Positions 2,365 to 26,809 of a DNA stretch of 26,809 bases are shown one piece after another. Made by a program: the position numbers and the translations under genes. The DNA comes from Promethearchaeota archaeon. GTDB lineage: Archaea > Asgardarchaeota > Lokiarchaeia > Sigyniarchaeales > SOKP01. The stretch's first letter is position 1. Every line of letters begins with the position of its first letter. Below the pieces are notes generated by a model, which was not told the DNA's origin, searched no databases, and was given only the letters and a program-made list of their open reading frames with translations. The stretch spans positions 1 through 26,809 of the forward strand of contig JBHLNZ010000043.1 of assembly GCA_048941015.1 (NCBI GenBank), written 5' to 3'.

Positions 2365-2519
2365 CTTCACTCACATTAATTTCTATAAGAGAAATAAATA
2401 ATAATAGTAATGTTCTTTTTTATTAAAGCATTTAATATTCATTAATGTTCTTTAAAATCTTAAAGAAGTTAAAATTTTTAATTTTAAGTAAAATTTTCAA
2501 ATAAAGCCAATGTGATTTT

Positions 2520-5780: not shown

Positions 5781-5782
5781 TC

Positions 5783-5793
5783 TTTTTTTTTTT
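5783..5793 (+). terminator. Oligo-T (T11) archaeal terminator candidate
   Basis: T11 run starts 3 nt after the UPF0182 stop, in the gap before the convergent psmA. Confidence 0.55.
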
Positions 5794-5829
5794 AAAATTT
5801 AATTATAAACCATTAAAAAGAATCTTAAT

Positions 5830-6546: not shown

Positions 6547-6629
6547 TTAATTTACCTAGGATATTATGAATTTAATATTTTAAAAAATATGATAATGAAT
6601 TTTAATTTAATGTTTATACAATATTAAAC

Positions 6630-7175: not shown

Positions 7176-7311
7176 AGTGATTCAATATTCTTAATATTTC
7201 AATAATTAAATTATAATTTTATATTATAATCAATAAATAAAAATAATAATATTAAATATTTTTTCTAGTTTCTCTAATACAATTCAAAAATAATTGGGAG
7301 AATTTTAACAC

Positions 7312-8621: not shown

Positions 8622-8657
8622 CAATAGTAAAAAAATCAAATTAAAAAAAAAAGAAAT

Positions 8658-10370: not shown

Positions 10371-10441
10371 TTTCAAAATTCACTTCAAATAATTGATTTT
10401 CAATAATGTAAAATTGTAATAATAAATATGATAAGTATAGT

Positions 10442-10456
10442 TAAAAAACTTTAGAG
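10442..10456 (-). promoter_or_regulatory. Putative BRE/TATA promoter of acyl-CoA ligase 1
   Basis: Minus strand reads ctctaaagtttttta about 70-85 nt upstream of ATG. It resembles the element upstream of ligase 2 (tctaaaggtttttatc). Confidence 0.4.
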
Positions 10457-10516
10457 TTTTTTATCAAAAAATTAAAAAAAAAAAGTATTATATTAAAAAA
10501 AAGAATTCTATGAAAA

Positions 10517-12229
10517 TTATTTTCTAAGAACTTTTTTATCAATTTTACCTACAGCAGTTAGTGGCAATTCTTCCATAATGTGAATCTTCTTTGGAACTTC
10601 GTAAGGTGCACAATTTTCTTTTGCAAACTCACTTATATTTTCCTTTAATTTCTCTTCATTGCCATCATATTCGTAGTCTGGATCAAGTTGAATATAAGCG
10701 TTAACAATTTCAGAGCCTGGGCGATCTGGATTAGGCTCTCCAATAAGGGCAATCATGCCTATTGCAGGATGTTTTGCTAAAGTATCTTCTACCTTGGCGG
10801 AAAATACTTTATAGCCACCAACAATTAACATATCTTTTGTACGATCAACTATTCTTATGTAACCATCTTCAGCCATTATTCCAACATCGCCACTATGCAT
10901 ATACCCATCTTTATCAATTGCTTTAGCTGTTTCTTCAGGTTTATTATAATATCCCTGCATTACAAGTGGCCCTCTAGCACAAATTTCACCAGGCTCCCCA
11001 AGGGGAACTTCGTTACCTGTTTCAGGATCAACAAGTTTAAGCTCTACATTTTGAATTGGTAATCCAACAGTTCCTAACTGTTTTTTACCTAATGAGGGAT
11101 TCATTGTGGCTACAGGTGACAATTCTGTCATCCCGTAAAGTTCTAATAATTTTCCTTCACCGATAATATTTTCCAATTCAACTTGAGACTCTTTTGGGAA
11201 TGGAGATGCTGCTGAAACGCATGTACCTAGTTCAGAATGGTCCAGCTCTTTAAACTTAGGATTCTTTATAAGCAGTTGATATAATGAAGGTACATTAACT
11301 AAATTTGTTGCTTTATATTTATCCATTACTTTAACAATATGATCTGTATCTCTGGGATTCGGAATGACTAACTGACCAAATCCTGCATAAAGAGCACTTT
11401 CACATACTGTTAAACCTGCAATATGAAAATAAGGAAATCCACTGCACAGAATTCCTTTTCCCCACTCCCACTGAAGCCATGCAATTATAGCTTTCATGTT
11501 AGAAACACAGTTTCTATGACTTAACATGGCTCCCTTAGGTGGTCCAGTTGTACCTCCAGTATATTGAATCCAACCAATGTCATCCGGAGTCAAATCAACA
11601 CTAACAGGATTCGTGGGATATTTTCCAATTACATCTTTTTTAAAATCAATAACGGTCTTTCCTGGCAGAGGGGATACTTTTCCTTTTGGAACCTTTCCTA
11701 ATGCTTTACCTAACACTTGTTTAATTTTTGGTAGGAAATCAGCTACATTTGTAGCAATTACAAGTTTTAATTGAGGCATCGCTTCAGCGATTTTTACGAT
11801 ATGTCCTGCAAAGATTGCATCAAGAGTGATAAGAGCAACCTGTTTTCCTCCTGATCCTAGATCGTTAATTTGATATTGTATTTGAACTGCTGAAAGGAGA
11901 GGAGATACACCTGATACAATACATCCAGCTTTTAATGTCCCAACCACAGCAATTACATACTGGGGTGAATTTGGTAGATTTATTCCTACCACATCTCCTT
12001 TTTTAAAACCATTATCAATTAGCATATGGGCAAACTGATTCGAATATTCATCAATTTCCTTAAATGTGATTTCAACACCTAAATATTCTAATGCCATTTT
12101 ATCGGGAAAATCTTTAAAAGTTTCTTTAATCATCTTGGGGTAAGTGGTCTCAAATTCCTTAGGATCGAGATCTTCTACTCCTGAATCCCAATTTTTTTTC
12201 CAAAATCTACTTGAATACGGACTTGACAT
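10517..12229 (-). CDS. fadD: Long-chain-fatty-acid--CoA ligase (AMP-forming acyl-CoA synthetase), paralog 2, 570 aa
   Basis: Same ANL-superfamily motifs as paralog 1; RBS-like GTGAGA upstream of ATG. Confidence 0.9.
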   Translation of the reverse strand: MSSPYSSRFWKKNWDSGVEDLDPKEFETTYPKMIKETFKDFPDKMALEYLGVEITFKEIDEYSNQFAHMLIDNGFKKGDVVGINLPNSPQYVIAVVGTLKAGCIVSGVSPLLSAVQIQYQINDLGSGGKQVALITLDAIFAGHIVKIAEAMPQLKLVIATNVADFLPKIKQVLGKALGKVPKGKVSPLPGKTVIDFKKDVIGKYPTNPVSVDLTPDDIGWIQYTGGTTGPPKGAMLSHRNCVSNMKAIIAWLQWEWGKGILCSGFPYFHIAGLTVCESALYAGFGQLVIPNPRDTDHIVKVMDKYKATNLVNVPSLYQLLIKNPKFKELDHSELGTCVSAASPFPKESQVELENIIGEGKLLELYGMTELSPVATMNPSLGKKQLGTVGLPIQNVELKLVDPETGNEVPLGEPGEICARGPLVMQGYYNKPEETAKAIDKDGYMHSGDVGIMAEDGYIRIVDRTKDMLIVGGYKVFSAKVEDTLAKHPAIGMIALIGEPNPDRPGSEIVNAYIQLDPDYEYDGNEEKLKENISEFAKENCAPYEVPKKIHIMEELPLTAVGKIDKKVLRK

Positions 12230-12284
12230 TTTTATCTCACGTATTTATTATTCTGGTTTCAGATTCTTACTTTATTTTATCGTT

Positions 12285-12300
12285 GATAAAAACCTTTAGA
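12285..12300 (-). promoter_or_regulatory. Putative BRE/TATA promoter of acyl-CoA ligase 2
   Basis: Minus strand tctaaaggtttttatc: purine-rich BRE followed by a T/A box, about 55-70 nt upstream of ATG. Confidence 0.4.
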
Positions 12301-12608
12301 TTTCAACTTTTCATAAGAAAAATTGCTAATATTTACTAGTGATATGATCAGTTATAAAGTTTTAATATTGTTAAGGATAATTGACATTTTGTTCAATCGC
12401 ATTCATTCTAATTTGGCAATATTTTTTAAATTTTTTTAATTTTATTTGCAATGACCTCTCTCTCTGTCTATAAAATAATCTTCCTTTTAAATGGAATATT
12501 CTTTCTTTAAAAACACAGTTCTAATTTCTTCTTTTATACAAAAGGATAGAATTTAGAAAATCGTCGGTGTATTACTGTTTTAGTTCCAGCAAATCATCAA
12601 TTTTTGTG

Positions 12609-13373
12609 ATGACGTTTGATTCGGGGTTCAGGGTCTATAAGAAATACAATGATATTCCACCCATTTCAAGTGGAGACACAACGCTAGATGAACTATTGGG
12701 AGGAGGAGGTTTCCATAAAGATTTAGTATATCTTTTATATGGAGACAAAGAAACCAAAAGAAGGATTACAAACGTTTTGCTTACAACTGCCGTAAATGCA
12801 CAAAAATCTTTTGTTAATGGAGGATTTGGAGATAGAATTAAGGTTGCGTTTGTCGATGCCAACAACCATTTTAACCCGTATAATGTAGGGAAATATGCTG
12901 TTTCACAGCATCTATCTCCTAAGCAAGTATTAGAGAATATTCAAGTCGCTCGAGCGTTTACTTGGGATCAAATGGTCGAACTTTTGGAAAACAAACTCTC
13001 GAAGTTAGAGCACATTAAAGTAGTATTAATCTCGGGGATTACTACTTTATTTCACGGTTATGAAAAACAAACATTTGAGGATTTGTTGAAAGCAATAAGT
13101 GGAATCAAAAAAATACTTGAAAGAACAAACCCTCTGATTGTCATAACTGCGCCTCTGAATGAATACAGTTCATTTAGGCCCAAAGGGGGAAAGATCCTTT
13201 CTCATTTTGGAAATGTTCTGATACTAATCAGAGAAGGAAAAAGAAATGTAGAATATCACCTCGTTCAGCATCCATATTTAGCAGAAAACAGCTTGCTAAA
13301 ATGGAAACCCAAGGAACCTAAGATGAATCTCTCAAAAGCCTTGAAAAACACCACACTAGATTACTGGATTTAA
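12609..13373 (+). CDS. Inactivated RadA/Rad51-family ATPase paralog with C-terminal PIP-like box
   Basis: RadA core motifs ISSGDTTLDELLGGG, AFVDANNHFNP, LENIQVARAFT, GGKILSH. Walker A is replaced by GDKETKRRIT and Walker B reads VVLISG (Asp lost). No N-terminal HhH domain. ATG 12609 is preferred over the GTG at 12567. Ends KNTTLDYWI. Confidence 0.85.
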   Translation: MTFDSGFRVYKKYNDIPPISSGDTTLDELLGGGGFHKDLVYLLYGDKETKRRITNVLLTTAVNAQKSFVNGGFGDRIKVAFVDANNHFNPYNVGKYAVSQHLSPKQVLENIQVARAFTWDQMVELLENKLSKLEHIKVVLISGITTLFHGYEKQTFEDLLKAISGIKKILERTNPLIVITAPLNEYSSFRPKGGKILSHFGNVLILIREGKRNVEYHLVQHPYLAENSLLKWKPKEPKMNLSKALKNTTLDYWI

Positions 13374-13452
13374 ATTGTATTTGATATTACCTTTTTGGGA
13401 GATTTATAGAGAATCTAAATACTTCTTAATTTACCCATAATAAGGCATAATC

Positions 13453-13466
13453 CTAAGGTTTAAAAA
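13453..13466 (+). promoter_or_regulatory. Putative BRE/TATA promoter of the KAP microprotein gene
   Basis: ctaagg-TTTAAAAA, with the TATA box at 13459-13466, about 72 nt upstream of ATG 13538. Confidence 0.5.
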
Positions 13467-13537
13467 TGAAAACAATAATTATAACCAGTAACAAAAGGAA
13501 ATTAAATTAAATTAAAAAAGAAGAGATGTAAACCACT

Positions 13538-13651
13538 ATGGCTAAAAAGAAAGCACCCGCTAAAAAAAAGCCAGCACCAAAAAAGGCTCCTAAGAAAAAG
13601 GCTCCTGCAAAAAAGGCTCCTAAGAAGAAAGCCGCTCCAAAGAAGAAATAA
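13538..13651 (+). CDS. 37-aa Lys/Ala/Pro-only basic microprotein (histone H1 C-terminal-tail-like)
   Basis: MAKKKAPAKKKPAPKKAPKKKAPAKKAPKKKAAPKKK* (19 K, 10 A, 7 P, 1 M). Synonymous codons vary among repeats. Upstream GAGATG RBS-like element and TATA box; T-rich tract downstream. Below the ORF-track cutoff. Confidence 0.85.
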   Translation: MAKKKAPAKKKPAPKKAPKKKAPAKKAPKKKAAPKKK

Positions 13652-13736
13652 AAAATGATATCAAGAAGTATGTTAATAATTAAAAATGATTTTTTTCTAA
13701 CGTTTACTTTTTTATAAATTTATTACTTTTATAATC

Positions 13737-14162
13737 TTATCTTTTTTTGTAGATATTAGGATCCTTTTTTTCAAGAGTCAAAGAATCACCGCCATATCTA
13801 ATTTTTCTTCCTTTATAGTATAGATCTGACTTTTCTTCACAAATTTCATTCCACTTTGCAATACCGAATTTTTTAATCATTAAAAGGTTGTAAATTTTTG
13901 AGTTATGAGGCATAAAGATTTCAAAATTTACAATTGGTTGTAGCTTTTCACAGGGAAACTCATTACACTCATAGCAAAAATTATAACCTCTACTTGTTAC
14001 GCATTCGTAAGTTTTACATACAGGAAAATCTTTTATTTGCCCCTTGTGTTCTCGACACCCTTTACAATTATAAACTTTTACGCCAGGGCATCGTTTACAA
14101 TAAATTCCACATGGTGCGTGATCATTAAAATATAAACTCATAAAGCAATACCTATTACTCAT
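13737..14162 (-). CDS. DUF3795-like Cys-rich metal-binding protein
   Basis: APCGIYCKRCP...CKGCR...C..YEC...FCYECNEFPCEKL cysteine pattern. Confidence 0.8.
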   Translation of the reverse strand: MSNRYCFMSLYFNDHAPCGIYCKRCPGVKVYNCKGCREHKGQIKDFPVCKTYECVTSRGYNFCYECNEFPCEKLQPIVNFEIFMPHNSKIYNLLMIKKFGIAKWNEICEEKSDLYYKGRKIRYGGDSLTLEKKDPNIYKKR

Positions 14163-14230
14163 TTTTAAGATATATTATGATAATTCTTCTTTTTTATAAA
14201 GATTATTCTTATGGAGGATAATAGTTTCTT

Positions 14231-15202
14231 TTATTTAATACCTAGGAGTTTAGCAGCATTATCATAAAGCCACTTTTTCTTTACACTTTCTTTTAATGGC
14301 AAATTCATAACTTCATCAGCTAATTGTTTAATTGACATTCCCATAAACAGCCATGTTGATCCAAAAAGGATTTTATCCTGTAACACTGAGTTTCCATAAT
14401 GGATTAAGGTTTCCCAGCCCGTTCCTTCCATTCCTATATATTTAGGAAGGTAAGAAGCAAAATCTATATAGATATTTGAATTTTTCCAAGCAACTCCTAC
14501 TAATTCATTTACCCAAGGCCATCCTCCATGTCCTGCTATCATCTTCAACTCTGGAAAATCTTGAGCCACAATATCTAAATAGATTGGTCTTTCAACTTCC
14601 ATTGTATTTGTTGAGTGATTGATTGAGAGATGGAACCATATAGGTATATCAAGTTCAACGCACTTTGAGTAAATAGGGTACATTTTAGCATGATGAGGAG
14701 GAATACCAAACATGAATGGTCTAATTGCTATTCCTCTTAGTCCTAAATCATAAGATCTATTAATTTCTCTTATCGCTTCCATTTTTTTAAGAGGATCAAT
14801 GCCAGCAAATCCAATAAATTTATCAGGATAATTTTGAACAATATTGGCATAATAGTCATTAGGAAGGCCAGCAATACCGCTTGGAGTTTCTTCATCAAGA
14901 TTGAAAATTATTGCTTTTTCTACACCCATTTTATTAAGCTGGTCAACAAATTCATTTACGCTCATCGTCAAATTTCTTATTTTCGGCAAATATGGCTCGA
15001 TAGCATTTTTTAACTCAGTTGAACTCATGGATATTTTCATCTCATATAGTTCATTGGCAGTAATTCCTATTAAAGGCGCAACTCTTGGGCCAAAAACATC
15101 TCTAAGATATTTCGACATTTGAGGTGGTAATGATACTAAAAGATCAATAAAAACTTCTTCTGTAGGGACATAACATAAGGTATCAATGATTCTATAATCC
15201 AT
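14231..15202 (-). CDS. Amidohydrolase superfamily (Amidohydro_2-like) protein with degenerate metal site
   Basis: NDYYA..V..YPDKFIGFAGIDP, LGLRGI, YPIYSKCVELDIP.WFH, IAGHGGWPW, LFGSTW, LYDNAAKLL. ATG at 15202 chosen over the upstream GTG. Confidence 0.85.
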   Translation of the reverse strand: MDYRIIDTLCYVPTEEVFIDLLVSLPPQMSKYLRDVFGPRVAPLIGITANELYEMKISMSSTELKNAIEPYLPKIRNLTMSVNEFVDQLNKMGVEKAIIFNLDEETPSGIAGLPNDYYANIVQNYPDKFIGFAGIDPLKKMEAIREINRSYDLGLRGIAIRPFMFGIPPHHAKMYPIYSKCVELDIPIWFHLSINHSTNTMEVERPIYLDIVAQDFPELKMIAGHGGWPWVNELVGVAWKNSNIYIDFASYLPKYIGMEGTGWETLIHYGNSVLQDKILFGSTWLFMGMSIKQLADEVMNLPLKESVKKKWLYDNAAKLLGIK

Positions 15203-15363
15203 CTTATTCACTTTGAAAAAATATCTATAATCTTACAATGTTAAAGCAATATATTAATTCTTCTAAGTATTTTTTTCATAACAAAAAAAAATTCAAAAAT
15301 CAAAAAATTCGCAACGTATTTTTTTTTTAATTCTATAGGCAACTCTTCTTCTTGGTTATTATT

Positions 15364-15636
15364 ATGGGTAGAACGGTACCTTCTTTTAGACCTGCGTTAG
15401 AGCATGAGATTGAGAGTTGGAAGGATTTTAAAAGAGCACTTAGACCTGAAGAACAAAAGATCTTTGACAGATTAATGAATTTTGCCCGAATCCACGCTGA
15501 TGCGGGTAGCTTAGGTGCACGCCCTATGCTCTCAGAAGTTCTCTTTATCTCTTTTGCAATTGAACAAGAAAAAAAAATTACATCCTTAGAAAAGAAACTT
15601 GATGAATTAGAAAATTTGGTTAAAGGGAATGATTAA
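15364..15636 (+). CDS. PolB2-associated small helical protein (arCOG07300-like)
   Basis: MGRTVPSFR...W..FKRALR.EEQ..FDRL...AR.HA.A signature, lying directly upstream of polB2 (3-nt gap). Confidence 0.8.
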   Translation: MGRTVPSFRPALEHEIESWKDFKRALRPEEQKIFDRLMNFARIHADAGSLGARPMLSEVLFISFAIEQEKKITSLEKKLDELENLVKGND

Positions 15637-15639
15637 AAA

Positions 15640-18042
15640 TTGGATTTGCAGAATAATTTTGATGGATGGCTTTTAGACATTTCTCTTTATAGGAATGGTG
15701 TAATTCTTTGGGTAAAAGATTTAAAAGAAAAGGTAGTTCGAAAAATCTACCAAAAATATTGTCCGGAATTTTTTGCCGTTCCAAAACCTAGTGCTGGAAA
15801 TGATGTAAAGAGGTTAAAGTACATTCTACAACAAAATTCCAATATTTCCCGAATAAGAGTGTGTGAGAAATATGTAAAATTAGAGGATCACAAAAAAAGT
15901 AAAGTTTTTGGATTATCTGTTTCAAAACCTTCATTATTCAAGAAAATTATTAAAGAAATTGATGAAATTGGCCTCTTTACACTGTATAATACAGATCTTC
16001 CTATTACTCAAATGTACTTCTATGAAAATGATTTATTTCCAATGGCTCTCTGCAATTTTAGGGTAAAGATCGAAAGAAACAAGCAAAAAGGAAAGACAAT
16101 GCATCTTACTTCTTTAGAACTTAAAGATAACAACGAGCTTCTCTTCTATGATCTACCGCCTTTGAAGGCTGTATGGTTGGATGTAAAAATTCAACAGAGA
16201 GGCATAAGATATTATTACAATGACCCTCTTAATTACGCTCTTATTAGTATTGTAGAAAATGATGAGGAAAATGTTCCACGGGCTGATGGGTACACAAAAC
16301 GTACGATTCTAATTGACGAAGCTGACGAAGCTGAAACACTGAAAAAGATTAGTAAAGCAATTGAAAAGCTTGATCCTGATATTATTCTCACTCACCACGG
16401 AGATGAATTTATGTTTCCCTATTTGGCTGCTCGAGCATCAATAAATCACGTATCAAAAGACTTATACTTCTCACGAAACAAAAAGTCTTTAAAAAATTGT
16501 TTTTTCAACCTTTCAGGAAATTCTGATCACTATATGTCTTATGGTATAATACGACGTCGTTCGAGGACACAAGTATATTTCACTGGCAGAATTCATCTGG
16601 ATACAGCAACTTATGCTAGCCTTCATTTTACAGAAGGTAATATTCCCGGAGTCATTGAAGTGGCACGTATTTCAAGAATCCCTATGCAGAGACTCTGTAG
16701 AGTGACTATCGGGGGTGCACTCCAGTCTATCCAATATTATAATGCTTATAAACTCGATCATCTCATTCCTCCCTTTAAAAAGAGTCCTGAAGACTTTCGT
16801 TCTGGGATGGACCTAATTAAAAGCGATCGCGGAGGCCACATTTTTGAGCCCCTGATTGGAGTTTTTCATCATGTAGTTGAATTAGATTTTTCTTCAATGT
16901 ACCCCTCTCTAATGGCAACATACAATATTTCTTCAGAAACTATAAACTGCCAATGTTGTAAGGATGATGGTACCGGAATAAAAGTACCAGGATTAAATTA
17001 TCATATTTGCTCAAAGAGACAAGGGATAATTTCAAAATCAATTAGTCTCCCTTTAATAAAGCGACTAAAGTGTAAAGAATATGTACGAAAAACAAATAGT
17101 ATTCGCTATAAATTTACTGATACTGCACTAAAATGGGTTCTTGTTGTAAGTTTTGGTTATCTAGGGTTTAAAAATGCTCGTTTTGGAAAAATCGAGGCGC
17201 ATCAAACGGTTTGTGCTTTTGCTCGTGATCTTCTTATGCGTTCTGTAGAAATTGCAGAAAGTTATGACTGTGAAATAATTCATGGAATTGTAGATTCGAT
17301 GTGGCTTAAAGACAAGAAACGTAGAACAATAGAGGAATTTGAAGAAATTACTAAACAGATTGCAAAAGAAATAACTGAGCATACAAAAATACCTATGAGC
17401 TGGGATGGTAGATTTGACGTCATATCGTTCCTTCCATCAAGAGCAGAACCCGATATCCCCGCCCTAAGTCATTACTGGGGTATCAAAAGTAGCGGCGAAC
17501 TAAAGGTAAGAGGTATAGATGTTAGACGCAGAGATGTGCCAAAAATAGTGAAAGAAGCTCAATATGCATTTATCAATGTATTCAAAGGAGCAAAAACACA
17601 AAAGGAATTCATGGAAAGAATGCCTGAAGTTAAAAAGAAACTTTTGCAATATGCCAATAGGATTCAAAATGGGAGCGTTTCTAGAGATGAGCTTACAATT
17701 CGTCAAAGAATCTCAAGGAGACCATCACATTATAAGGTTAATTCTTACCAAGCCGTTGCTGCCAAACAGCTAGAACGTTCTGGTGCCATAGCATCGCCTG
17801 GAAAGAATGTAAGATATATCATTCTCAATGCTGATGCTGATCCAAATTTTCCAGAGAAGAAAGTAATACTTTCTGACTTATATGACAGTAATAAACATGA
17901 ATATGATAAAAAAAAGTATATAGAACTTCTGAAAAGGGCATTTGAAAATCTTTTTCCTTTTGAATTTCCTGAACTTGAGGCGTTATTGAAATTAGATTTC
18001 AGTAAGAAACTTAATCAAAAAGATTTATCTTGCTTCACTTAA
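15640..18042 (+). CDS. polB2: Family B DNA polymerase, PolB2 (Dpo2) subfamily, proofreading-deficient
   Basis: Motif A ELDFSSMYPS followed by NISSETINCQCC; motif B ALKWVLVVSFGYLG; PolB2-type motif C HGIVDS instead of YGDTDS. Degenerate exonuclease motifs (WLDVKI, HHGDEFMFPYL). C-terminal QKDLSCF. Confidence 0.92.
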   Translation: MDLQNNFDGWLLDISLYRNGVILWVKDLKEKVVRKIYQKYCPEFFAVPKPSAGNDVKRLKYILQQNSNISRIRVCEKYVKLEDHKKSKVFGLSVSKPSLFKKIIKEIDEIGLFTLYNTDLPITQMYFYENDLFPMALCNFRVKIERNKQKGKTMHLTSLELKDNNELLFYDLPPLKAVWLDVKIQQRGIRYYYNDPLNYALISIVENDEENVPRADGYTKRTILIDEADEAETLKKISKAIEKLDPDIILTHHGDEFMFPYLAARASINHVSKDLYFSRNKKSLKNCFFNLSGNSDHYMSYGIIRRRSRTQVYFTGRIHLDTATYASLHFTEGNIPGVIEVARISRIPMQRLCRVTIGGALQSIQYYNAYKLDHLIPPFKKSPEDFRSGMDLIKSDRGGHIFEPLIGVFHHVVELDFSSMYPSLMATYNISSETINCQCCKDDGTGIKVPGLNYHICSKRQGIISKSISLPLIKRLKCKEYVRKTNSIRYKFTDTALKWVLVVSFGYLGFKNARFGKIEAHQTVCAFARDLLMRSVEIAESYDCEIIHGIVDSMWLKDKKRRTIEEFEEITKQIAKEITEHTKIPMSWDGRFDVISFLPSRAEPDIPALSHYWGIKSSGELKVRGIDVRRRDVPKIVKEAQYAFINVFKGAKTQKEFMERMPEVKKKLLQYANRIQNGSVSRDELTIRQRISRRPSHYKVNSYQAVAAKQLERSGAIASPGKNVRYIILNADADPNFPEKKVILSDLYDSNKHEYDKKKYIELLKRAFENLFPFEFPELEALLKLDFSKKLNQKDLSCFT

Positions 18043-18134
18043 TTAAAGGCTGTAATTGATTTTAATTTGTTATATTTAATTTAGAAAATTTTCACTCTGT
18101 ATATCTTTTTTTTGGACTAAATTAATTTTCAATT

Positions 18135-18305
18135 ATGTCATCAGATTCAATATCATATTATGATTGGTCATTAAGTTTTAAGAAAGATGATGGCAGTCAT
18201 AACTCTTTTGTAAAACATACAAGATCGAGAAGTATGAATTCAATTGGTCTTCCTGATGATGAATTTAAGGATTATTTAAAAAAGTGGAAAGAAGAACACC
18301 TTTAG
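18135..18305 (+). CDS. 56-aa hypothetical protein (not in ORF track)
   Basis: MSSDSISYYDWSLSFKKDDGSHNSFVKHTRSRSMNSIGLPDDEFKDYLKKWKEEHL*. It fills the gap between polB2 and the giant gene, is less AT-rich than its flanks and ends in an amphipathic helix. Confidence 0.55.
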   Translation: MSSDSISYYDWSLSFKKDDGSHNSFVKHTRSRSMNSIGLPDDEFKDYLKKWKEEHL

Positions 18306-18369
18306 GAATAGATTATTATTTTTATCATGTTTATTAGATTCTATTAGTACTTTCTTAAAATATTCAAAC

Positions 18370-21300
18370 TTAAATTCTAACTTCGAAGAAATACCAAACT
18401 ATTAATACAATTATCCAAATTATAAACAATGTAATAGATATAAATGTTGTATAAAACCTCCACTTAATAGATATCTTTTCTTTCTTTTCTTTTCGATAAA
18501 TAAATATTAGTGTTATTGCCCCAAGGCCTAAAATCGGGGGTAAAATTAATACAAATTGATATAATACTGATTTAATGTAAGGTAATATTAAAGCAAATAT
18601 AAAACCAGTCATGCCCAACCATGCTGTAATAAATCTTTTCATTTTCTCCTCAAAAATTTCATCAGGTTCTTTTGCTCTCTTTGAGGGAATTAAACCAAAA
18701 AATATTCCAAAGACTGCTACTGCTAATAAATAAGGATAATACGAATGTAGTAGACCAAGCATTATATCAGAGAAAAGAATTCCTGTGAAAATTCCTAAAG
18801 CCATACAAATTATAATCCGAATATATTTAAAATTTGCTTCCAAGAAATTAATAAGAGTATAATAAGCTGATATTATTGCATTCTTTAATTTAATATAAAG
18901 AGCATTTAAATAATCCATGAAATGATTAATTAACTCCTTTAAGTCTTCTAACATAAAAATAAAAGGATAAATTAGAATTCCTATAATTAAAAATGACCAA
19001 CTCCAGTTAGAGGTTGAAAAGAAGTAAAAAATAAAACTTAATAACAAGAAAATTAGTGCCCAATAGAGAAATGAAATCAATCTGTGTCTTTTAAATGGTT
19101 TAAGTAAAACTCCCATGAATATTGTGAAAATTAGAGAAGAAATTGATGAATTTAACATTAGGTTGGGAAAATTATACTCTAAAACAAAAAAAGTATCTAT
19201 AGATAGAAGAACGCCAAAAATTATTAAACTATAAGAAAGTATCTTCTTTCTGAAATCATTTTTAATTGCTTTCACAGAATAGTCTACTAGAGAAAATAAG
19301 AGTACTAACCCAGAAGAAAATAAAAAAAGATGCAAATTATTCAGTAAACTATAGCTTAAATAATAGAGTGGCCACATAATAATATCAAGATAAAAAATTA
19401 TTATTAATACTTTTTTAATCATCATTTTCCTTACTTCTACAGATTTCCAGAATTCTAGCATCTTAAATAGATAAGTCAATTCAAATAATAATAATAAAAT
19501 GATAATTGGTATAATTGGAGTTGAAAAAAGAGATATCCAGCTCATAAAATATAGAACCGAAAAGCCTAGAATGAATAACAGCGAGAAAATAACGAAATAA
19601 TTCGAGATTTTTCCCAGAAACTTTACTACTTTTTTATCAATTAACATTAGGATATGAATCGTAATACTTAAAGTTAGTAATATTAGTTGTGCCTCTATAT
19701 TTGTTTGAATTAAAAGTTGTGAAATTAAATTCAGCAAACTAATATAAAAAGCAATGCCGATAATTCTTTTCCTATAAGTCATCCATTTTTTAAAAATAAC
19801 TTCTTTTTCTGTTTTAAATTTAGTTCGAATTTTATAATAAGTATAATTGGTATAGAATTGCAGTAAAATAAACAGAATAAATGAGGAGTTATATAAAATT
19901 AAATTTAATAATGAAAATTGTAATAAAATCATTAATAGAGCCCATGTGAAATTAAAATAGCTTATGAAATGTACCAGAAGCATATATTTATTAGGTAATT
20001 TCTTTACTAATACTATCTCTAATGAACTAATACACAATAAGATTATTTGTGAACCTAAAAAGCTTTCAAATATTCCAAAATAAAGATTTAAAAATCCGTA
20101 AAAAAATATTGTGATTTCTAAATATACTACGAATATTAGAATAGAAAATATTCTATTAATTACATTAATATTAATTCTATCCGAATATTGGTTTTTGATT
20201 GAGTAGATATGGTAAAAGATTAATACCGTCTCAATTATAGTAATCAACATAACACTGAAAATATTAAAAAAGTATAACGATAGAAATAAATTCAACCAAA
20301 ATAGTAAGAGATTAAGTTGAAGTACAGCAAAAATTATTAGATGGATTGGGATAATTAATTTCTTATTAACGCGTTTTGCAATGTAAATATCAAATAATGT
20401 TAGAATAAATAAAATGCAACAAGATGTTAAGATACTTTCAATAAGATCAAGACTAATAACCTCGACTATTAATCCAAATGTTACATAAAAAATTTCAAAA
20501 TAGAGTGTAATTCCAATAAAGGAATTAATTTTGTTGATTTTTGTTTCTAAATTCTTAATATCAATTTCTACGCCAGATGTTTTAATATACCTCAAACTAA
20601 ATAAAATTAGGATAGACCAAATTATGAGAAATTCAAATATTCTTAGTAAAATTGAAAATACGCTAAGTAAAGAAACTATTAAAGAGAAATACGTTGAATT
20701 TAAGATAAAACATATTAAATTTAGTATTTTAATTTGATTTTTATCACTAAAAAAGCTCTTAATCTCATTATCTTCACGTTGATTCGATATTTCAATAGGC
20801 TTATTATAAATGTTAATTAAAATTTGAAAGATAACTGTATATGCCAAAAATCCTAATAAAGTCAAGATTATAATTGGTTTAAATAATGGAAATACAGAAA
20901 AGACTTGTAAACTTAAAAGGGCAATAGGAATAGGATATAAATACCACATTATATATCTATATCTCCTGATAATCGAATAGACAAAAGTAATATTAATTGC
21001 GGTTAAAAGTGTTAAAGCAATATAGAGGAAATTTGGAAATGCGTTAAATATTAAAAAGAATAAAGAAAATGAAACTCCAATTGATAAAAACACTACTGGA
21101 ATTATTTTTTTAATAGGAGTTATCATTTTAAAACGATTAAAAACATAAAAGCTTCCTCCAAAAACAGCTATAGCGATAAAAGTAGCTAATACTTGATTTT
21201 TTGGGATTAAATTGAAAGTAAAAAATGTAAAGAGTGAAAAACTTGTAGTTAAAATAATAGAAATCAAAAAATTTATGATTTTTTGATTTAATTTGAAGAT

Positions 21301-24300
21301 TCTAGAAGAAAAAAGACTTAAACCAATTATCATGAAAGCTAAGTTAATAGAGATAGGGGTATTTAAGATAATTCTATTAATTAAATTAAAAATGATTAAA
21401 TAAATACCTGTAAGAGCTACGAAATAAGATCCAATCAAAATAACACCCTTTTGTGCTTTTAAGTTAGGGAAAAACGATAATATTATGAAGTGAAATCCCA
21501 AAGTAAAAAGAGTCAATGAAAAATTAACATCAAAAGGGATTTGAACTATTTCTAAAAGAATGAAAAGGAATGTGACATTTATCAGGCTGGAAATTATCCA
21601 AAATATCATTAATAATTTCCAAAATTTCAATTTATATAAAATTGGCATCAAAAGTAATACTGCAAAAACACTAAAAAGGAAATTAGTTAATAAAAGACTT
21701 TCCACGAAAATATTTTGACAAAACCAGTATATAAGAAATAAACTCAAACCCCATACTGAAAATAACACCAAAGCGAAATTCTTTTTAACCCAAGTATACC
21801 AAAACGGTAATGAAAGTAGGACTGATATTATAAGAGTTATCAGAAATGATCCGTTTATCTCTAGTATTCCAAATAAAGTTAAAGCATTAGTATATATATC
21901 TAAACCAGAAATACTTTCGTATATTATAAGAAAATTTATTATTGGAAAGAATATCCAAACCCTCCATCCCACTTTCCAAATAGCCCAAGAGATCTTCCAT
22001 TGATAAATTCCAATTGAAAGATAATATAGGAATATAGCTATATTTAATGATATGATAAATATAATTGGATTCCATATAGATAAGGAGGTTACTGCAATCA
22101 AGAAAAAATAGACGAATACTGGAAAAGCTATAGTTATTAAGGGAAGAACAAGATAAAAAGATCTTTTCCTAAACACTGGAGTGCTTTTATTATAAACCGA
22201 AACAAAAGCTAATCCTGTGATTGTTAAGGTTAGAGTGAAACTCAGAATAGGATTATATTCACTAAAAAGAATATTTTTAAAGAATACCCCATAGGATAAA
22301 TAACTAATAAGATCAAAAATGAATAATAGAATACATGGCTTAATAAACCATTTATATCTTTCATCTCGTTTACTATAAAAAAAGTTCCCTGTTAAGCCAA
22401 GAAAAACTAAACATGCTATTGTTGTATTATAGAAAATCGGAATAACAGGATAATAAGTTAAGATAGATACAAAAATTAAGGCAGATACTGTACTATAAAG
22501 TGAAAGTTTCTCAATTATGTTGATTCTCCTTATATTCAGAATAATTGATGAAAATAAAATTGAACTTATTGTTATTAATAGTAAACATATGTAAAATCCA
22601 AAAGGGAGAAATATACCTAAAGTGCCTATTAATAAAATTAAATTCAAATAAATCACAAAACTTAGCACAATATAAGCGATTGACCGTAATATAAAATTTC
22701 TGTTTCGCCTGATGAGAATTACTATATATGCGATGACCATAAATAAAGGGAAGAATATTGAGAGAAAGAAAGAAAATGCTAAAACAAGTATGAAATAAAT
22801 TAGGAAAAGTTGATAAATTTTGAATTCAGAGCTATCTTCACCTATTTCATTAAATCGAAGTACATAAGAATTAGCCAATAAAAATATTATAGAAAGAATT
22901 AGCATTAATATTAAATATTGATTTTCATAGAAGAGAGGGTGAATTAACAAAGAATTCCAATAGATTTCAATAAAAATACAAATTAAAGAGATAAAGAATA
23001 TTAACACAGTGATTTTAATCAATCGTTCTTTTGAAATTTCTAAAATTACGAATCTCTGTTTAAAAAAGTATATTGTTATAGGACTTAAAATCGCAAAGAT
23101 TAATGTAGTTAATAAAATATGATTTATAATCGAAAGTCCAAGAGGATATAATGCTATTATTGAAATTATTATAATTTTAATGGTAAGCCATAATAGCAAT
23201 TCTATGTTTTCCACTAATCTTTCAAATTCAATTTTAATAAGGCTCTTAAAAATTATTAAAAGTAGTAGATTTATGAGCAAAAATAGTCCTGAATTATAAA
23301 GTACTATTAATATATTATAATCCACTGGAAAAAGTAAAGAAGTGAGATTAATTGGTTGAACTAACGTGAAAAGAATAATTGAAATGGATAAGATTATCCC
23401 TAAAATGCTAAGATTCTTATTATATTCGAATATTTTATAGATTTTATAAAAATCAAATCTTGATTTTCTAGATTCAAATGTCCTTTGTTTTAAATCTTCG
23501 ATTTGGAATAGATTAAAAAGGTTTAGAATAAAAAATACTAAGCAAGAAATTCCAATTATTAAAATCTTAAACCATAAATCAGATGTATTTAGTATGTACA
23601 TACATAACTTCCAAAAAACTAAAATACAAATAAAAAACCAACTAAATATTTGTAAAATTTTAAGATTAATTAGAAAAGTTTCTTTCATCTTTATATACTC
23701 AGAAATCCTACTTAAAAATTTAAGAAAACCAAGCACAAGTAGCATTGTAATAATAAATATTATTAAAAGATCGATAGAAAATCCTAACTTGGTAAATTCA
23801 AGAGCGAAAACGGATGGAATTAATATAATACAACCCCATATAAAAAAAGTATTAATGAATAGAATTTTTCTTACCAAATTTGGGATGAAGAAACCTTTTT
23901 TATAAGAGAAAAATAAAGGAATAAATAGAAATCCAGATGCCGCCATTGAAGGGAACAATAATGCATAAAAACTACCAGTCAATAATCTGTATGGGTAATA
24001 AAATATGACAGTACCAGTTATCAGAAATTCAATGATAGTCTGAATTTTCAAAAATAAATTGATATTCTTAACTTTAATAATGAAATTCTTCACTAGCATA
24101 TATATGAATCCTAAAATTCCATATAAAATGAATAATGTAAAGTTTATTATCGTAATTATATCAATGCTAATTCCTAACTTAATTAACTCCAAACTAATTA
24201 TTGTTGGAATTAATAGTAATGAAATTGATAGAATCAAACTGTTGATTATTAATATATTTTTAAAAATCTTTGGCAATTTGATTTTATTTTTAATGTAAAG

Positions 24301-26529
24301 TATTGGAATGTAAAAAAATAGACTTGAAAATATAATTGGAAGTATTAATGTGTAATAAGTATTAATAGAGTAAATATACAGAAAATAATATATTAAAAAT
24401 GTCGTAAATAATAGAGAAATCATATTTAACAGAAAGCATGACGATTTAGAGATTAATCTATCCTTAAGAAAAATATTGCTTGATAAGCTAAAAATAATTA
24501 AAGAAGAATATGCGGAAATAATGATATTGTTGATAAGAGGTAATGAACTAAGCAAGTTAAAAAATAAGAAAAATAATAATCCAAAAAATTCTAAAAAGAT
24601 CAAATATGAATTAATATTAGTGAAAATTCTCATTACAGATTCCTTTACTTTTCCTATTTTTAGTCCAAATTTTAATGTAATATGAGAAAATATTGAGAGA
24701 AATAACAAACCTAATAAAATAACTACACTACTATAATAGAAATTAATAACAATAGAAAGAAATATGAAAAATACTAAAAACCAACATGAATAATAGCTAT
24801 ATAATTTACTTTCCCTTACTGAGATTACTCTAATGAGATAATTTATAAAAATGAATATTAAAAAAGAAGTTGGGAATAAAATTAGCAGAGTTGTAACATT
24901 TCCTAGAGAATTTAGGAAACCAAAAGTGAAAAACTGTTTAAAAACAATTAATACATAAGAACTAAATATAATTAAAACGAAATTTAAACTTAAAATTCTC
25001 CGAAAATTTTTCCAAGGTTTTTTGATAAAATAGACAGCATATAAATAATAAAAAGAAACTAAAAGAATACTTAGAATAAAAACAGAATGTAGAATTATAT
25101 TGGAAATTGAGATAAAAAAAGGATCTGTTGTAAATGTGATATAATCAGAAATAACTATCGGGAAGAAAGAATATGCAATAACAAAAAACAAAGAAACGGC
25201 AAGAATGTGTTGAATAATAATTATATTCTCTTTGATGAAATATCCTTTCTTTACAAAGATTTGTAGAATTATGAATAAAAATATGTTAAAAGTAATTATT
25301 TGAATGTTTAAGCTCATTAAATAAATAACGTCTGGTAATATCCAGAATGCTATAGAAGCAAAGATTGCTATACAATTTATTAAAAGAATATACTTACTAT
25401 ATTTTTTTGGACAGTAATCTGCCTTCTGTTCAAATAGAGTTATTATAATAATAATTGGTAATATAAAGAGAATAACTAATGGTTGATTAATTAGGATGGA
25501 GAATAAAATAGTGAAAACTATGAATAAAAAAGAGATTGACGCATTATACTTTTGATATTTAATATCTAATAATTGTTGACTGTCCTCTTCATTAGTTCTC
25601 TCTAATCTCATATAAAATTTTTTAAAATTAATAAGCATATATATTCTAAATTTTAGGTAAAATAACATCAAAATAATTGATAATAATGAAGCTCCGAAAA
25701 GACCTGAATATGAACTACTTAATCCTATAAAATTGTAAATGATAATGATTACGTATGGAATTTGAATCAATAAAACGAAAATTAAACTAAATATAGAAGA
25801 CGCAAACTTGTGTTTATATTCCGCTAAATCTACTAAAAATGGTTTTCCTTCATGGATTGCTTTATCAATCCTTTTTCGAGATTTATTAGTAGATATTAAA
25901 GTATTTAAATAAAAAATGAGATTTGTAATAAGAGCGAAAAGCCATGAATAGCCTGTATAGAATGTATAGGATAAAAAAAATACCTGCCCAACAAAATTTA
26001 AGATAATAATCAAATTATAAAATTGTCTTATTGTTAAATTGAAGCTCATAGCATGCTTAAATTCACTTTTATTAATATCAAAAAAATCAATGGGTTGAAA
26101 GTAATAATAATAATAAACAATATTGTAAAGAATACAAAATGATATCAATGGCAGTAATTCAAATCTGTACCCTTCGGGGGTAACTACTGTAAAAATAGGA
26201 GTAACAATTAAAGATAACAGAGTTATAAAAAACAGGATATGAATTCTAGCAATAGGATTATTTATTTTATTCTTGAAGAAAGGCTCTTTTCTATATTTAT
26301 CGTACGATTTATAGAAAAAGAGTAATGAAAACATAAATGCAAGTATAGTAAATCCAATCGATAAGATTACATCTTTTATAATAAAATTAAATATAAAAAA
26401 CCAGATTACAGAAATAATTGCAGGAACAATTATTAAATAAAAACAAAACCACCATATCTTCCAGAGTAATTCTGTTGCTTTTTCAATTCTTTGCCCTGAT
26501 TTTTGATTCACATGAGATTCCATGTTCAT
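18370..26529 (-). CDS. Giant (2719 aa) polytopic integral membrane protein of unknown function with internal repeats
   Basis: Uninterrupted 8.16-kb ORF made almost entirely of I/L/F-rich hydrophobic segments separated by short K/R-rich loops; no recognisable catalytic domain. Start may be 26523. Confidence 0.85.
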   Translation of the reverse strand: MNMESHVNQKSGQRIEKATELLWKIWWFCFYLIIVPAIISVIWFFIFNFIIKDVILSIGFTILAFMFSLLFFYKSYDKYRKEPFFKNKINNPIARIHILFFITLLSLIVTPIFTVVTPEGYRFELLPLISFCILYNIVYYYYYFQPIDFFDINKSEFKHAMSFNLTIRQFYNLIIILNFVGQVFFLSYTFYTGYSWLFALITNLIFYLNTLISTNKSRKRIDKAIHEGKPFLVDLAEYKHKFASSIFSLIFVLLIQIPYVIIIIYNFIGLSSSYSGLFGASLLSIILMLFYLKFRIYMLINFKKFYMRLERTNEEDSQQLLDIKYQKYNASISFLFIVFTILFSILINQPLVILFILPIIIIITLFEQKADYCPKKYSKYILLINCIAIFASIAFWILPDVIYLMSLNIQIITFNIFLFIILQIFVKKGYFIKENIIIIQHILAVSLFFVIAYSFFPIVISDYITFTTDPFFISISNIILHSVFILSILLVSFYYLYAVYFIKKPWKNFRRILSLNFVLIIFSSYVLIVFKQFFTFGFLNSLGNVTTLLILFPTSFLIFIFINYLIRVISVRESKLYSYYSCWFLVFFIFLSIVINFYYSSVVILLGLLFLSIFSHITLKFGLKIGKVKESVMRIFTNINSYLIFLEFFGLLFFLFFNLLSSLPLINNIIISAYSSLIIFSLSSNIFLKDRLISKSSCFLLNMISLLFTTFLIYYFLYIYSINTYYTLILPIIFSSLFFYIPILYIKNKIKLPKIFKNILIINSLILSISLLLIPTIISLELIKLGISIDIITIINFTLFILYGILGFIYMLVKNFIIKVKNINLFLKIQTIIEFLITGTVIFYYPYRLLTGSFYALLFPSMAASGFLFIPLFFSYKKGFFIPNLVRKILFINTFFIWGCIILIPSVFALEFTKLGFSIDLLIIFIITMLLVLGFLKFLSRISEYIKMKETFLINLKILQIFSWFFICILVFWKLCMYILNTSDLWFKILIIGISCLVFFILNLFNLFQIEDLKQRTFESRKSRFDFYKIYKIFEYNKNLSILGIILSISIILFTLVQPINLTSLLFPVDYNILIVLYNSGLFLLINLLLLIIFKSLIKIEFERLVENIELLLWLTIKIIIISIIALYPLGLSIINHILLTTLIFAILSPITIYFFKQRFVILEISKERLIKITVLIFFISLICIFIEIYWNSLLIHPLFYENQYLILMLILSIIFLLANSYVLRFNEIGEDSSEFKIYQLFLIYFILVLAFSFFLSIFFPLFMVIAYIVILIRRNRNFILRSIAYIVLSFVIYLNLILLIGTLGIFLPFGFYICLLLITISSILFSSIILNIRRINIIEKLSLYSTVSALIFVSILTYYPVIPIFYNTTIACLVFLGLTGNFFYSKRDERYKWFIKPCILLFIFDLISYLSYGVFFKNILFSEYNPILSFTLTLTITGLAFVSVYNKSTPVFRKRSFYLVLPLITIAFPVFVYFFLIAVTSLSIWNPIIFIISLNIAIFLYYLSIGIYQWKISWAIWKVGWRVWIFFPIINFLIIYESISGLDIYTNALTLFGILEINGSFLITLIISVLLSLPFWYTWVKKNFALVLFSVWGLSLFLIYWFCQNIFVESLLLTNFLFSVFAVLLLMPILYKLKFWKLLMIFWIISSLINVTFLFILLEIVQIPFDVNFSLTLFTLGFHFIILSFFPNLKAQKGVILIGSYFVALTGIYLIIFNLINRIILNTPISINLAFMIIGLSLFSSRIFKLNQKIINFLISIILTTSFSLFTFFTFNLIPKNQVLATFIAIAVFGGSFYVFNRFKMITPIKKIIPVVFLSIGVSFSLFFLIFNAFPNFLYIALTLLTAINITFVYSIIRRYRYIMWYLYPIPIALLSLQVFSVFPLFKPIIILTLLGFLAYTVIFQILINIYNKPIEISNQREDNEIKSFFSDKNQIKILNLICFILNSTYFSLIVSLLSVFSILLRIFEFLIIWSILILFSLRYIKTSGVEIDIKNLETKINKINSFIGITLYFEIFYVTFGLIVEVISLDLIESILTSCCILFILTLFDIYIAKRVNKKLIIPIHLIIFAVLQLNLLLFWLNLFLSLYFFNIFSVMLITIIETVLIFYHIYSIKNQYSDRININVINRIFSILIFVVYLEITIFFYGFLNLYFGIFESFLGSQIILLCISSLEIVLVKKLPNKYMLLVHFISYFNFTWALLMILLQFSLLNLILYNSSFILFILLQFYTNYTYYKIRTKFKTEKEVIFKKWMTYRKRIIGIAFYISLLNLISQLLIQTNIEAQLILLTLSITIHILMLIDKKVVKFLGKISNYFVIFSLLFILGFSVLYFMSWISLFSTPIIPIIILLLLFELTYLFKMLEFWKSVEVRKMMIKKVLIIIFYLDIIMWPLYYLSYSLLNNLHLFLFSSGLVLLFSLVDYSVKAIKNDFRKKILSYSLIIFGVLLSIDTFFVLEYNFPNLMLNSSISSLIFTIFMGVLLKPFKRHRLISFLYWALIFLLLSFIFYFFSTSNWSWSFLIIGILIYPFIFMLEDLKELINHFMDYLNALYIKLKNAIISAYYTLINFLEANFKYIRIIICMALGIFTGILFSDIMLGLLHSYYPYLLAVAVFGIFFGLIPSKRAKEPDEIFEEKMKRFITAWLGMTGFIFALILPYIKSVLYQFVLILPPILGLGAITLIFIYRKEKKEKISIKWRFYTTFISITLFIIWIIVLIVWYFFEVRI

Positions 26530-26743
26530 ACATAAGTATATCTACTTAAAAAAATGTTATGCAATTTTCTCAGAATTTTCAGCAGCAAATTTAGGAAAAA
26601 TACTAGTAAAAAAACTATTTTAGTGGTAAAATTTATAATTCACTAGTAATAATAAAAGAGCTAGATAAAATAATATATAGAAAAGAAGAGATAATTATGA
26701 TTTAATTACTCAACTGAATTGAATACTCAATTAAAAATTGTTA

Positions 26744-26809
26744 TTATTTAAACTTTGGTAAATAATCCTTCTGAAGTTCCACCATTTTACTAAAGATATT
26801 TTCAGCCAT
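26744..26809 (-). CDS. 3' end of an upstream gene (partial); possibly a family 4 glycoside hydrolase C-terminus
   Basis: ...MAENIFSKMVELQKDYLPKFK followed by tandem TAA TAA. Resembles the 'A..i..e...ah..yLP.F' tail of GH4 enzymes, but only 21 residues are visible. Confidence 0.35.
   Translation of the reverse strand: MAENIFSKMVELQKDYLPKFK

What the first reader, a model, noticed from the sequence alone, without database searches (positions are those of the whole stretch)
18370..26529. Giant 2719-aa membrane protein that is almost all transmembrane helices
Seen: hydrophobic stretches of about 20 aa alternate with short basic loops over the whole length, by eye on the order of 70-80 segments (not computed). 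Only a few polar linkers occur (e.g. ERTNEEDSQQLLD, EDLKQRTFESRKSRFD, EISNQREDNEIK). There is a Trp-rich central patch (YQWKISWAIWKVGWRVW) and a long amphipathic helix near the C-terminus. Known: Piezo, one of the most TM-rich characterised proteins, has 38 TMs per subunit. Inference: an uncharacterised membrane-shaping scaffold, mechanosensor or large conduit, notable given the protrusive morphology of cultured Asgard cells.
Basis: partly seen in the sequence, partly recalled or inferred. Interest (0 to 1): 0.7.

Follow-up and report, generated by a model that had tools for sequence, protein, structure and literature searches.

The report
Giant 85-helix Lokiarchaeal membrane protein
This is a real, conserved gene of a Loki-type Asgard archaeon whose 2,719-residue protein crosses the membrane about 85 times (more than twice the 38 of Piezo), shows almost nothing outside the cell and matches no known family or fold, so its job, most likely an in-membrane scaffold, is still untested.

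Summary
I count 85 membrane helices (81-90 under all settings tried), arranged as about 42 tight hairpins. K+R alternates strictly: 187 in the 43 inner loops, 11 in the 43 outer loops. No outer loop exceeds 16 aa.

The gene is single-copy and under purifying selection (dN/dS 0.11). It belongs to an orphan family found in 116 of 400 Asgard genomes, all in the window's own order. Cultured members include L. ossiferum (3,146 and 4,905 aa) and P. syntrophicum (3,940 aa).

Its parts are:
- an 8-helix N-terminal module, a separate overlapping gene in many relatives;
- an N-arm with ~130-aa four-helix tandem repeats;
- a unique central core, which includes the Trp patch and is the most conserved part;
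- a C-arm with ~125-aa four-helix repeats;
- a cap with an amphipathic helix.

Pfam, NCBIfam, PADLOC, PDB sequences, Foldseek and VIA-align give no credible match. A profile search of 1.84 billion proteins finds only 57 relatives.

Function is unknown. My best guess (about 0.4) is a two-armed scaffold within the bilayer, analogous to Piezo blades but not homologous. This scan had already found the same family in other genomes.

The parts
18370..26529 (-). Whole ORF: 2,719 aa plus stop, about 85 TM helices, N-terminus predicted in the cytoplasm
   Evidence: single copy in the genome
25600..26529 (-). N-terminal module D0 (aa 1-310, 8 helices). It is fused here. In many relatives it is a separate ~313-aa gene that overlaps the start of the main gene.
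   Evidence: present in only about 56% of full-length members
23482..24621 (-). N-arm tandem repeats of four-helix units (aa 637-1016, period ~130 aa)
   Evidence: hhalign of family sub-profiles: aa 691-818 vs 825-945 at 99.4% probability, E 2e-21; neighbouring windows at 96.6-98.4%
20800..22482 (-). Unique central core (aa 1350-1910). It is the most conserved region, has no internal repeats, and has invariant Trp, Pro, Asn and Gly residues.
   Evidence: dN/dS 0.11 against the nearest genome
21934..22005 (-). Trp-rich patch plus broken helix (aa 1509-1532), family signature W..G...W...P..N. It lies at the cytoplasmic interface.
   Evidence: Highest-conservation bin; invariant across both families f1 and f3; AlphaFold2 shows short broken helices and its lowest confidence here
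19084..20736 (-). C-arm tandem repeats of four-helix units (aa 1932-2482, period ~125 aa). Each unit has a conserved Tyr (Y2136, Y2262, Y2380). Two units end their second helix in a conserved Asp (D2298, D2416).
   Evidence: hhalign 96.9%, 96.3% and 92.2% for adjacent units; weaker in-register matches for the rest; conservation
18826..18948 (-). 41-aa amphipathic helix (aa 2528-2568) on the cytoplasmic side
   Evidence: Hydrophobic moment 0.36, reached by 0.2% of shuffles; AlphaFold2 helix of low confidence
18373..18825 (-). Conserved C-terminal cap (aa 2569-2719, 5 helices; E2681, K2689 and R2691 nearly invariant)
26530..26743 (-). 214-bp AT-rich spacer upstream of the gene, with a T/A-rich box 16-25 nt before the ATG. 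It probably holds the gene's own promoter (inference).
26744..26809 (-). Last 21 codons plus stop of a family-4 glycosidase (GH4) gene, cut by the contig end. This is the conserved upstream neighbour.
   Evidence: GH4 identified in relatives; adjacency in 10 of 10 same-family loci

Best explanation
Descriptive part (near certain). This is a genuine gene for an integral membrane protein of about 85 helices. It belongs to an undescribed family confined to one order of Asgard archaea (Lokiarchaeia-type, including cultured species). The chain starts in the cytoplasm and runs as about 42 tight helical hairpins. The outer turns are mostly 2-4 residues. The cytoplasmic loops are 5-41 residues and basic. 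About 65% of residues lie in the bilayer, 27% face the cytoplasm and 7% face outside.

The protein has a hub-and-arms plan. A unique, strongly conserved central core (aa ~1350-1910) is flanked by two arms built partly from tandem four-helix units. A detachable 8-helix module sits at the N-terminus and a conserved cap with an amphipathic helix at the C-terminus.

Mechanism (inferred, about 0.4). The protein acts from within the bilayer as a long structural scaffold. The arms are rows of four-helix bundles whose number differs between species. The much larger and more conserved cytoplasmic face, with its Trp/Tyr belt, basic loops and interfacial helices, would make the array wedge-shaped. It could therefore stiffen, bend or sense the single, wall-less membrane of these cells. 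This works like the blades of Piezo without being related to them. The conserved core may be an assembly hub or a small conduit.
For: - Real gene: open frame; dN/dS 0.11; GC3 0.21, the same as its neighbours, so the low GC comes from amino-acid content; 89 full-size homologue clusters.
- Topology: 85 helices and strict K+R alternation, 187 vs 11. AlphaFold2 models of aa 1037-1937 (pLDDT 79, pTM 0.64) and aa 1933-2719 (pLDDT 82, pTM 0.52) reproduce the called helices.
- Arms made of repeats. No repeats in the core.
- Arm lengths differ between members in discrete classes, while the core motif always sits mid-chain. Per-sequence helix counts range from 76 to 145.
- Most conserved polar and aromatic residues lie in cytoplasmic loops or the inner third of helices, including 13 of 15 conserved Trp.
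- The only (insignificant) Foldseek neighbours are HEAT/TPR solenoids and designed repeat toroids. This fits a row of stacked hairpins rather than a compact transporter bundle.
- No enzyme-like or transporter family match.
Against: - No experiment exists and no expression data were reachable.
- Model coordinates could not be inspected, so the overall shape (linear, curved or compact) is not shown.
- pTM of 0.52-0.64 leaves the packing between units uncertain.
- The core is the best conserved part and contains a broken helix with invariant Pro and Asn. That pattern is more typical of a binding or conduction site than of a passive scaffold.
- Conserved charged residues lie inside helices (E647, K1118, E2138, H2292), which could mean ion or lipid handling.
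- The gene was not found in 34 of 134 genomes of its own family. One genus has it in only 1 of 10 genomes. So it may be dispensable.
Confidence: 0.4

Rival explanations
1. Channel or transporter. The conserved central core forms a conduit for ions, lipids or another small molecule, and the repeat arms only anchor or gate it. In the gated form this would be a true Piezo-like mechanosensor.
For: - The core is the most conserved part, with invariant W, P, N and G, a broken helix at P1529/N1532 and a short extended segment at aa 1550-1558.
- Conserved intramembrane E647, K1118, E2138 and H2292.
Against: - No transporter or channel family matches by sequence.
- There is no extracellular vestibule or cap, since no outer loop exceeds 16 aa.
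- AlphaFold2 confidence is lowest exactly in the core.
Confidence: 0.2
2. Lipid-handling 'sponge'. This would resemble bacterial Arc3A (DUF2339, 35 helices), which protects against phospholipase toxins by preventing lysophospholipid build-up. The dense helix array would bind or sequester particular lipids.
For: - Same style of protein: very many closely packed helices and no enzyme-like residues (PMC8926400, read).
- A conserved Tyr recurs in each C-arm four-helix unit, and two units end in a conserved Asp (D2298, D2416). This would suit one binding site per unit.
- The nearest named clusters in the ESM Atlas are DUF2339 (0.82) and DUF2157 (0.80).
Against: - The PF10101 model finds nothing in this protein at E<=1 or in the whole genome at E<=10.
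- In 201 Asgard genomes it gives only 3 hits below the cut-off, none at this gene.
- Atlas scores under 0.9 are stated to be chance-level leads.
- No phospholipase-related or defence genes lie nearby.
Confidence: 0.15
3. The single 2,719-aa frame is an assembly or sequencing artefact at one point. In the living cell there would be two overlapping genes, as in the nearest relatives: a ~313-aa 8-helix protein plus a ~2,410-aa protein. This would change the per-chain helix count to 8 + 77, but not the nature of the complex.
For: - The closest D0 relatives (81-82% identical) are stand-alone proteins of 310-314 aa, and at least 146 such clusters exist.
- The closest full-size relative (71% identical) starts just after the junction.
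- A one-base shift at the junction would separate the frames.
Against: - Fused forms with the same junction region occur in many other members, for example the 2,836- and 2,839-aa proteins.
- About 56% of aligned members carry D0 in the same chain.
- No reads were available to check.
Confidence: 0.2
4. Not a real gene: a chance open frame in AT-rich, low-complexity DNA, or a chimera of several genes.
For: Extreme composition (46% I+L+F) and the lowest GC in the window.
Against: - Chance of a stop-free frame about 1e-111.
- Collinear full-length homologues in 116 genomes, including closed ones.
- 232 positions at least 85% identical across 79 members.
- dN/dS 0.11.
Confidence: 0.01

Closest known systems
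PIEZO1/PIEZO2 mechanosensitive channels (eukaryotes)
   Same: A very large polytopic protein. Long membrane-embedded arms are built from repeated four-helix units, amphipathic helices lie on the cytoplasmic face, and there is a distinct conserved non-repeat module.
   Different: - No sequence match to any Piezo Pfam model, and Piezo is not among the listed structure matches (top 50 rows).
- About 85 helices against 38.
- The conserved module sits mid-chain, not at the C-terminus.
- There is no extracellular cap; the largest outer loop is 16 aa.
- Oligomeric state is unknown.
- Analogy only.
Arc3A / DUF2339 (PF10101), e.g. P. aeruginosa PA5114 (PMC8926400)
   Same: An unusually dense array of helices (35 in Arc3A), no catalytic-looking residues, and helix numbers that vary between species.
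   Different: PF10101 does not match this protein or genome. Arc3A is bacterial and pairs with Arc3B. This family is archaeal, 2-4 times larger, and has a unique Trp-rich core.
Uncharacterised orthologues in cultured Lokiarchaeia: L. ossiferum NEF87_002906 (3,146 aa) and NEF87_003094 (4,905 aa), P. syntrophicum DSAG12_00898 (3,940 aa), Ca. Harpocratesius repetitus MCF2139232.1 (4,296 aa)
   Same: True homologues. They have the same core motif W..G...W...P..N mid-chain and the same hairpin architecture.
   Different: Only 23-26% identical in the core. Their arms are longer (97-145 predicted helices). All are annotated 'hypothetical protein', and no paper in the library mentions the L. ossiferum NEF87_002906 or P. 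syntrophicum DSAG12_00898 entries (the other two were not searched).
Soluble alpha-solenoids (HEAT/TPR repeat proteins such as Kap121, Ski3)
   Same: Top, but insignificant, Foldseek rows for both models. They share the stacked helix-turn-helix repeat geometry.
   Different: E values of 0.005-0.04 and TM-scores of about 0.1. Those proteins are water-soluble. This protein would be a solenoid-like array lying within a bilayer.

Membership tests
Piezo | Sequence match to Piezo Pfam domains | tested here: not met
   hmmscan of the whole protein against Pfam-A gave 0 families at E<=1.
Piezo | Blade of tandem four-helix units (THUs) | tested here: inconclusive
   Tandem four-helix repeats were detected by profile-profile comparison in both arms. 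Whether a unit has the THU fold could not be tested, because no single-unit model could be made.
Piezo | C-terminal pore module with a large extracellular cap | tested here: not met
   The largest outer loop is 16 aa. The conserved module is central, at aa 1350-1910.
Piezo | Trimeric propeller that gives mechanically gated currents | not testable with these tools
   Needs a structure of the assembly and electrophysiology.
DUF2339 / Arc3A (PF10101) | Match to the PF10101 model above its cut-off | tested here: not met
   No hit in the protein at E<=1 or in the six-frame genome at E<=10. The control genomes did give hits.
DUF2339 / Arc3A (PF10101) | Dense polytopic architecture without catalytic motifs | tested here: met
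   85 helices. The invariant residues are mostly W, P, N, G and Y.
DUF2157 (PF09925) | Match to the Pfam model | tested here: not met
   The only link is an ESM Atlas score of 0.80, which is chance level.
Fused transporters (MFS, ABC, RND, Mrp/complex-I antiporter-like) | Sequence or fold match to a transporter domain | tested here: inconclusive
GT-C glycosyltransferases / O-antigen-ligase-like polytopic enzymes | Large extracytoplasmic loop carrying an acidic catalytic motif | tested here: not met
   No outer loop longer than 16 aa. No Pfam match.
Orphan Lokiarchaeial giant hairpin-array family (unnamed) | Central core with invariant W..G...W...P..N flanked by two multi-helix arms | tested here: met
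   The motif is at aa 1518-1532, with 1,517 aa before it and 1,202 from it to the end. The core aligns with 14 relatives from two families. The profile search gives E down to 1e-210.

The most novel reading that the evidence does not exclude
This family is a prokaryotic analogue of Piezo, invented independently. It would be a two-armed, 85-145-helix device within the membrane that bends or senses the wall-less membrane of Lokiarchaeia. It would help build or control their protrusions, and its conserved Trp-rich hub would act as a gated conduit or as the docking site for the cytoskeleton.
Probability: 0.15. Interest if true: 0.9.

Novelty: categorically new. Interest (0 to 1): 0.72.

Why it matters
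If the helix count is right, this family holds by far the largest number of membrane spans known in one polypeptide: 85 here and up to about 145 in L. ossiferum, against 38 in Piezo. It does so with almost no exposed domains, an architecture with no described precedent.

The family is conserved and under selection. It is present in the few cultured Asgard archaea, organisms studied for their complex, wall-less, protrusion-forming cells. That makes it directly testable by proteomics, cryo-tomography and reconstitution.

It also raises basic questions. How is such a chain inserted and folded? How can arms grow by adding four-helix units? How can a module be either fused or a separate subunit?

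It is specific to the Loki lineage, so it says little about the origin of eukaryotes as such.

Tried and rejected
- Self-BLAST of the protein found no internal repeat at E<=1e-3. Comparing the four large regions as wholes found nothing either, best 34% probability. Repeats appeared only with two-hairpin windows of the family profile.
- Pfam, NCBIfam and PADLOC gave 0 families at E<=1. A Pfam scan of 15 core sequences gave only single chance hits.
- A full-length profile against PDB sequences gave 0 hits at E<=1.
- Foldseek against the PDB gave nothing at E<=1e-3 for either model.
- The ESM Atlas gave only unnamed clusters at 0.90 and chance-level DUF2339/DUF2157.
- Foreign origin is rejected: GC3 equals that of the neighbours.
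- An assembly chimera is rejected: homologues are collinear.
- An operon with the GH4 gene is not supported beyond synteny. The genes are 108-484 bp apart, the pairing is absent from the more distant family f3, and a second GH4 lies elsewhere in the genome.
- Literature: no paper mentions the locus tags, general searches found nothing relevant, and the supplements of PMC11284389 are not held.
- Model coordinates are not exposed, so overall shape and curvature could not be measured.
Residues 1-1036 were not modelled.

Full report
**The observation**

The window has one open frame at 18370-26529 on the minus strand, 2,719 codons long. The DNA there is 21-26% GC. At that composition, a stop-free frame of this length has a chance of about 1e-111. 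The protein is 46% Ile+Leu+Phe.

A dynamic-programming segmentation of hydropathy gives 81-90 helices of 17-26 residues under all twenty-four settings tried. It gives 84 when hydropathy is averaged over 79 homologues. Printing the loops shows that K+R alternates strictly, 2-10 in one loop and 0-1 in the next, along the whole chain. There is one phase slip near aa 1225-1282. AlphaFold2 resolves that stretch into two helices. That gives 85 helices and restores a single consistent topology.

In that topology there are 43 inner loops (747 aa) with 187 K+R, and 43 outer loops (192 aa) with 11 K+R. Outer loops are at most 16 aa, and half of them are 2 aa. The mean helix length is 20.9 residues.

Over aa 1037-2719 the AlphaFold2 helices match the 55 called helices; one 76-aa modelled helix spans two of them plus the amphipathic segment. 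The amphipathic helix has a hydrophobic moment of 0.36, reached by 0.2% of shuffles.

**Is the gene real?**

It is single-copy in its 3.59-Mb genome. Its GC3 (0.21) equals that of its neighbours (0.18-0.26). The low overall GC comes from codon positions 1 and 2, that is, from amino-acid content.

A word-indexed search found 89 homologue clusters, all 1,500-3,750 aa, none with a Pfam domain and all named 'hypothetical'. Across 79 full-size members, 232 positions are at least 85% identical. dN/dS in the core against the nearest genome is 0.11.

**Distribution**

The core region matches 116 of 400 genomes searched in the phylum. All 116 lie in the window's own order: family f1 100/134, f2 1/1, f3 12/14, f4 2/4. 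None of the roughly 246 genomes from the remaining families of the phylum matched.

Exact look-ups identify members in cultured or closed genomes:
- L. ossiferum NEF87_002906, 3,146 aa
- L. ossiferum NEF87_003094, 4,905 aa
- P. syntrophicum DSAG12_00898, 3,940 aa
- Ca. Harpocratesius repetitus, 4,296 aa

A profile of the core was scored against all 1.84 billion representative proteins. It finds only 57 proteins, 53 of them below 1e-30, with no tail of distant relatives. Some depositor labels (Hodarchaeota, Thorarchaeota, one Nanopelagicaceae) disagree with the taxonomy-based survey. They probably reflect loose naming or binning.

**Anatomy**

Conservation is highest at aa 1350-1900 and peaks at the Trp patch. 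Y1509, W1511, S1514, W1515, W1518, G1521, W1525, P1529 and N1532 are 89-100% identical. Most of these stay invariant even in the distant f3 family.

A scan of all two-hairpin windows of the family profile against each other shows two tandem-repeat arrays:
- aa 637-1016, period ~130 aa, up to 99.4% probability
- aa 1932-2482, period ~125 aa, up to 96.9% probability

The scan finds no repeats in the core.

The signature W..G...W...P..N lies mid-chain in every member. The lengths before and after it fall into discrete classes, and predicted helix counts range from 76 to 145. This member has the shortest C-arm class.

The first 310 aa (8 helices) are a separate ORF of about 313 aa that overlaps the main gene by 8-14 nt in relatives L014 and L020. 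They are stand-alone in at least 146 clusters, including the closest relatives at 81-82% identity. Here the two parts are in one frame, as in many other members. A one-base assembly error cannot be excluded.

Conserved polar and aromatic residues lie mainly on the cytoplasmic side.

**Structure and known families**

The two models have usable confidence: pLDDT 79 and 82, pTM 0.64 and 0.52. The weakest region is the conserved core, where a helix is broken at P1529/N1532.

- Foldseek finds no PDB match at E<=1e-3. The best rows are HEAT/TPR solenoids and designed repeat toroids, with TM-scores of about 0.1.
- Pfam, NCBIfam, PADLOC and PDB sequences give nothing.
Its model fails against both the protein and the genome.

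**Context**

The last 66 bases of the window encode the C-terminus of a family-4 glycosidase. This is the same upstream neighbour seen in 10 of 10 loci from the same family. A 214-bp AT-rich spacer separates the two genes here, and the pairing is absent from family f3. I therefore read it as inherited synteny, not as proof of a shared function. Downstream lies the convergent PolB2 module.

**Interpretation**

What is shown:
- The gene is real and belongs to an orphan family.
- The protein has about 85 helices arranged as tight hairpins.
- It has a hub-and-two-arms plan, with arms built from four-helix units whose number varies between species.
- It has a detachable N-terminal module.
- Its conserved face is cytoplasmic.

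What is inferred: the protein works from inside the bilayer as a scaffold that stiffens, bends or senses the membrane. In that sense it works like Piezo blades, but it is not a Piezo (see the membership tests). I give this about 0.4. The rivals are a conduit in the core (0.2) and an Arc3A-like lipid sponge (0.15). These readings are not mutually exclusive.

**Earlier findings of this scan**

This scan had already met the same family in other genomes. My independent tests agree with those notes on helix number, orphan status, split forms and arm modularity.

**Data I could not reach**

A public L. ossiferum proteome exists (PXD074767, from PMC13716822), but I could not read it.

Noticed in passing
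window 26744-26809 (-): The contig ends inside a family-4 glycosidase gene, and only its last 21 codons are present. Aminotransferase, GH4 and the giant gene lie in that order in 9 of the 10 same-family loci examined (GH4 next to the giant gene in all 10). A second GH4 copy lies on contig C120 of the same genome.
   Followed up: partly
window 25590-25620 (-), aa ~305-315 of the giant protein: This is the junction where relatives have two overlapping genes (an 8-helix ~313-aa protein plus the main protein). Here they are in one frame. The fused and split states seem to have switched repeatedly in the family.
   Followed up: partly
L027 (G138:C1:3662000-3681900), 4779-19505 (+): L. ossiferum carries a second, much larger paralogue (4,905-4,908 aa, about 145 predicted helices, NEF87_003094). 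Most genomes have one copy.
   Followed up: partly
window 2520-5780 (+): A 1,086-aa protein with only a partial match to UPF0182 (aa 555-708, E 7e-11). It is another large uncharacterised protein in the same window.
   Followed up: no
window 8085-8621 (+): A 178-aa ORF with no Pfam match and unusually low GC at codon position 1 (0.28). This suggests a small hydrophobic or Lys/Asn-rich protein.
   Followed up: no
L028 (G158:C198:3161-7741), 1501-3081 (+): A 975-aa open frame in a genome of the same family gives a DUF2339 match below the cut-off (28.3 bits, E 5.5e-7). It is a different gene from the giant one.
   Followed up: no
P0076 and P0215 (database proteins): Two family members are labelled 'Candidatus Nanopelagicaceae bacterium' by their depositor. 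At 42-54% identity to this archaeal protein, they are probably mis-binned Asgard contigs.
   Followed up: no
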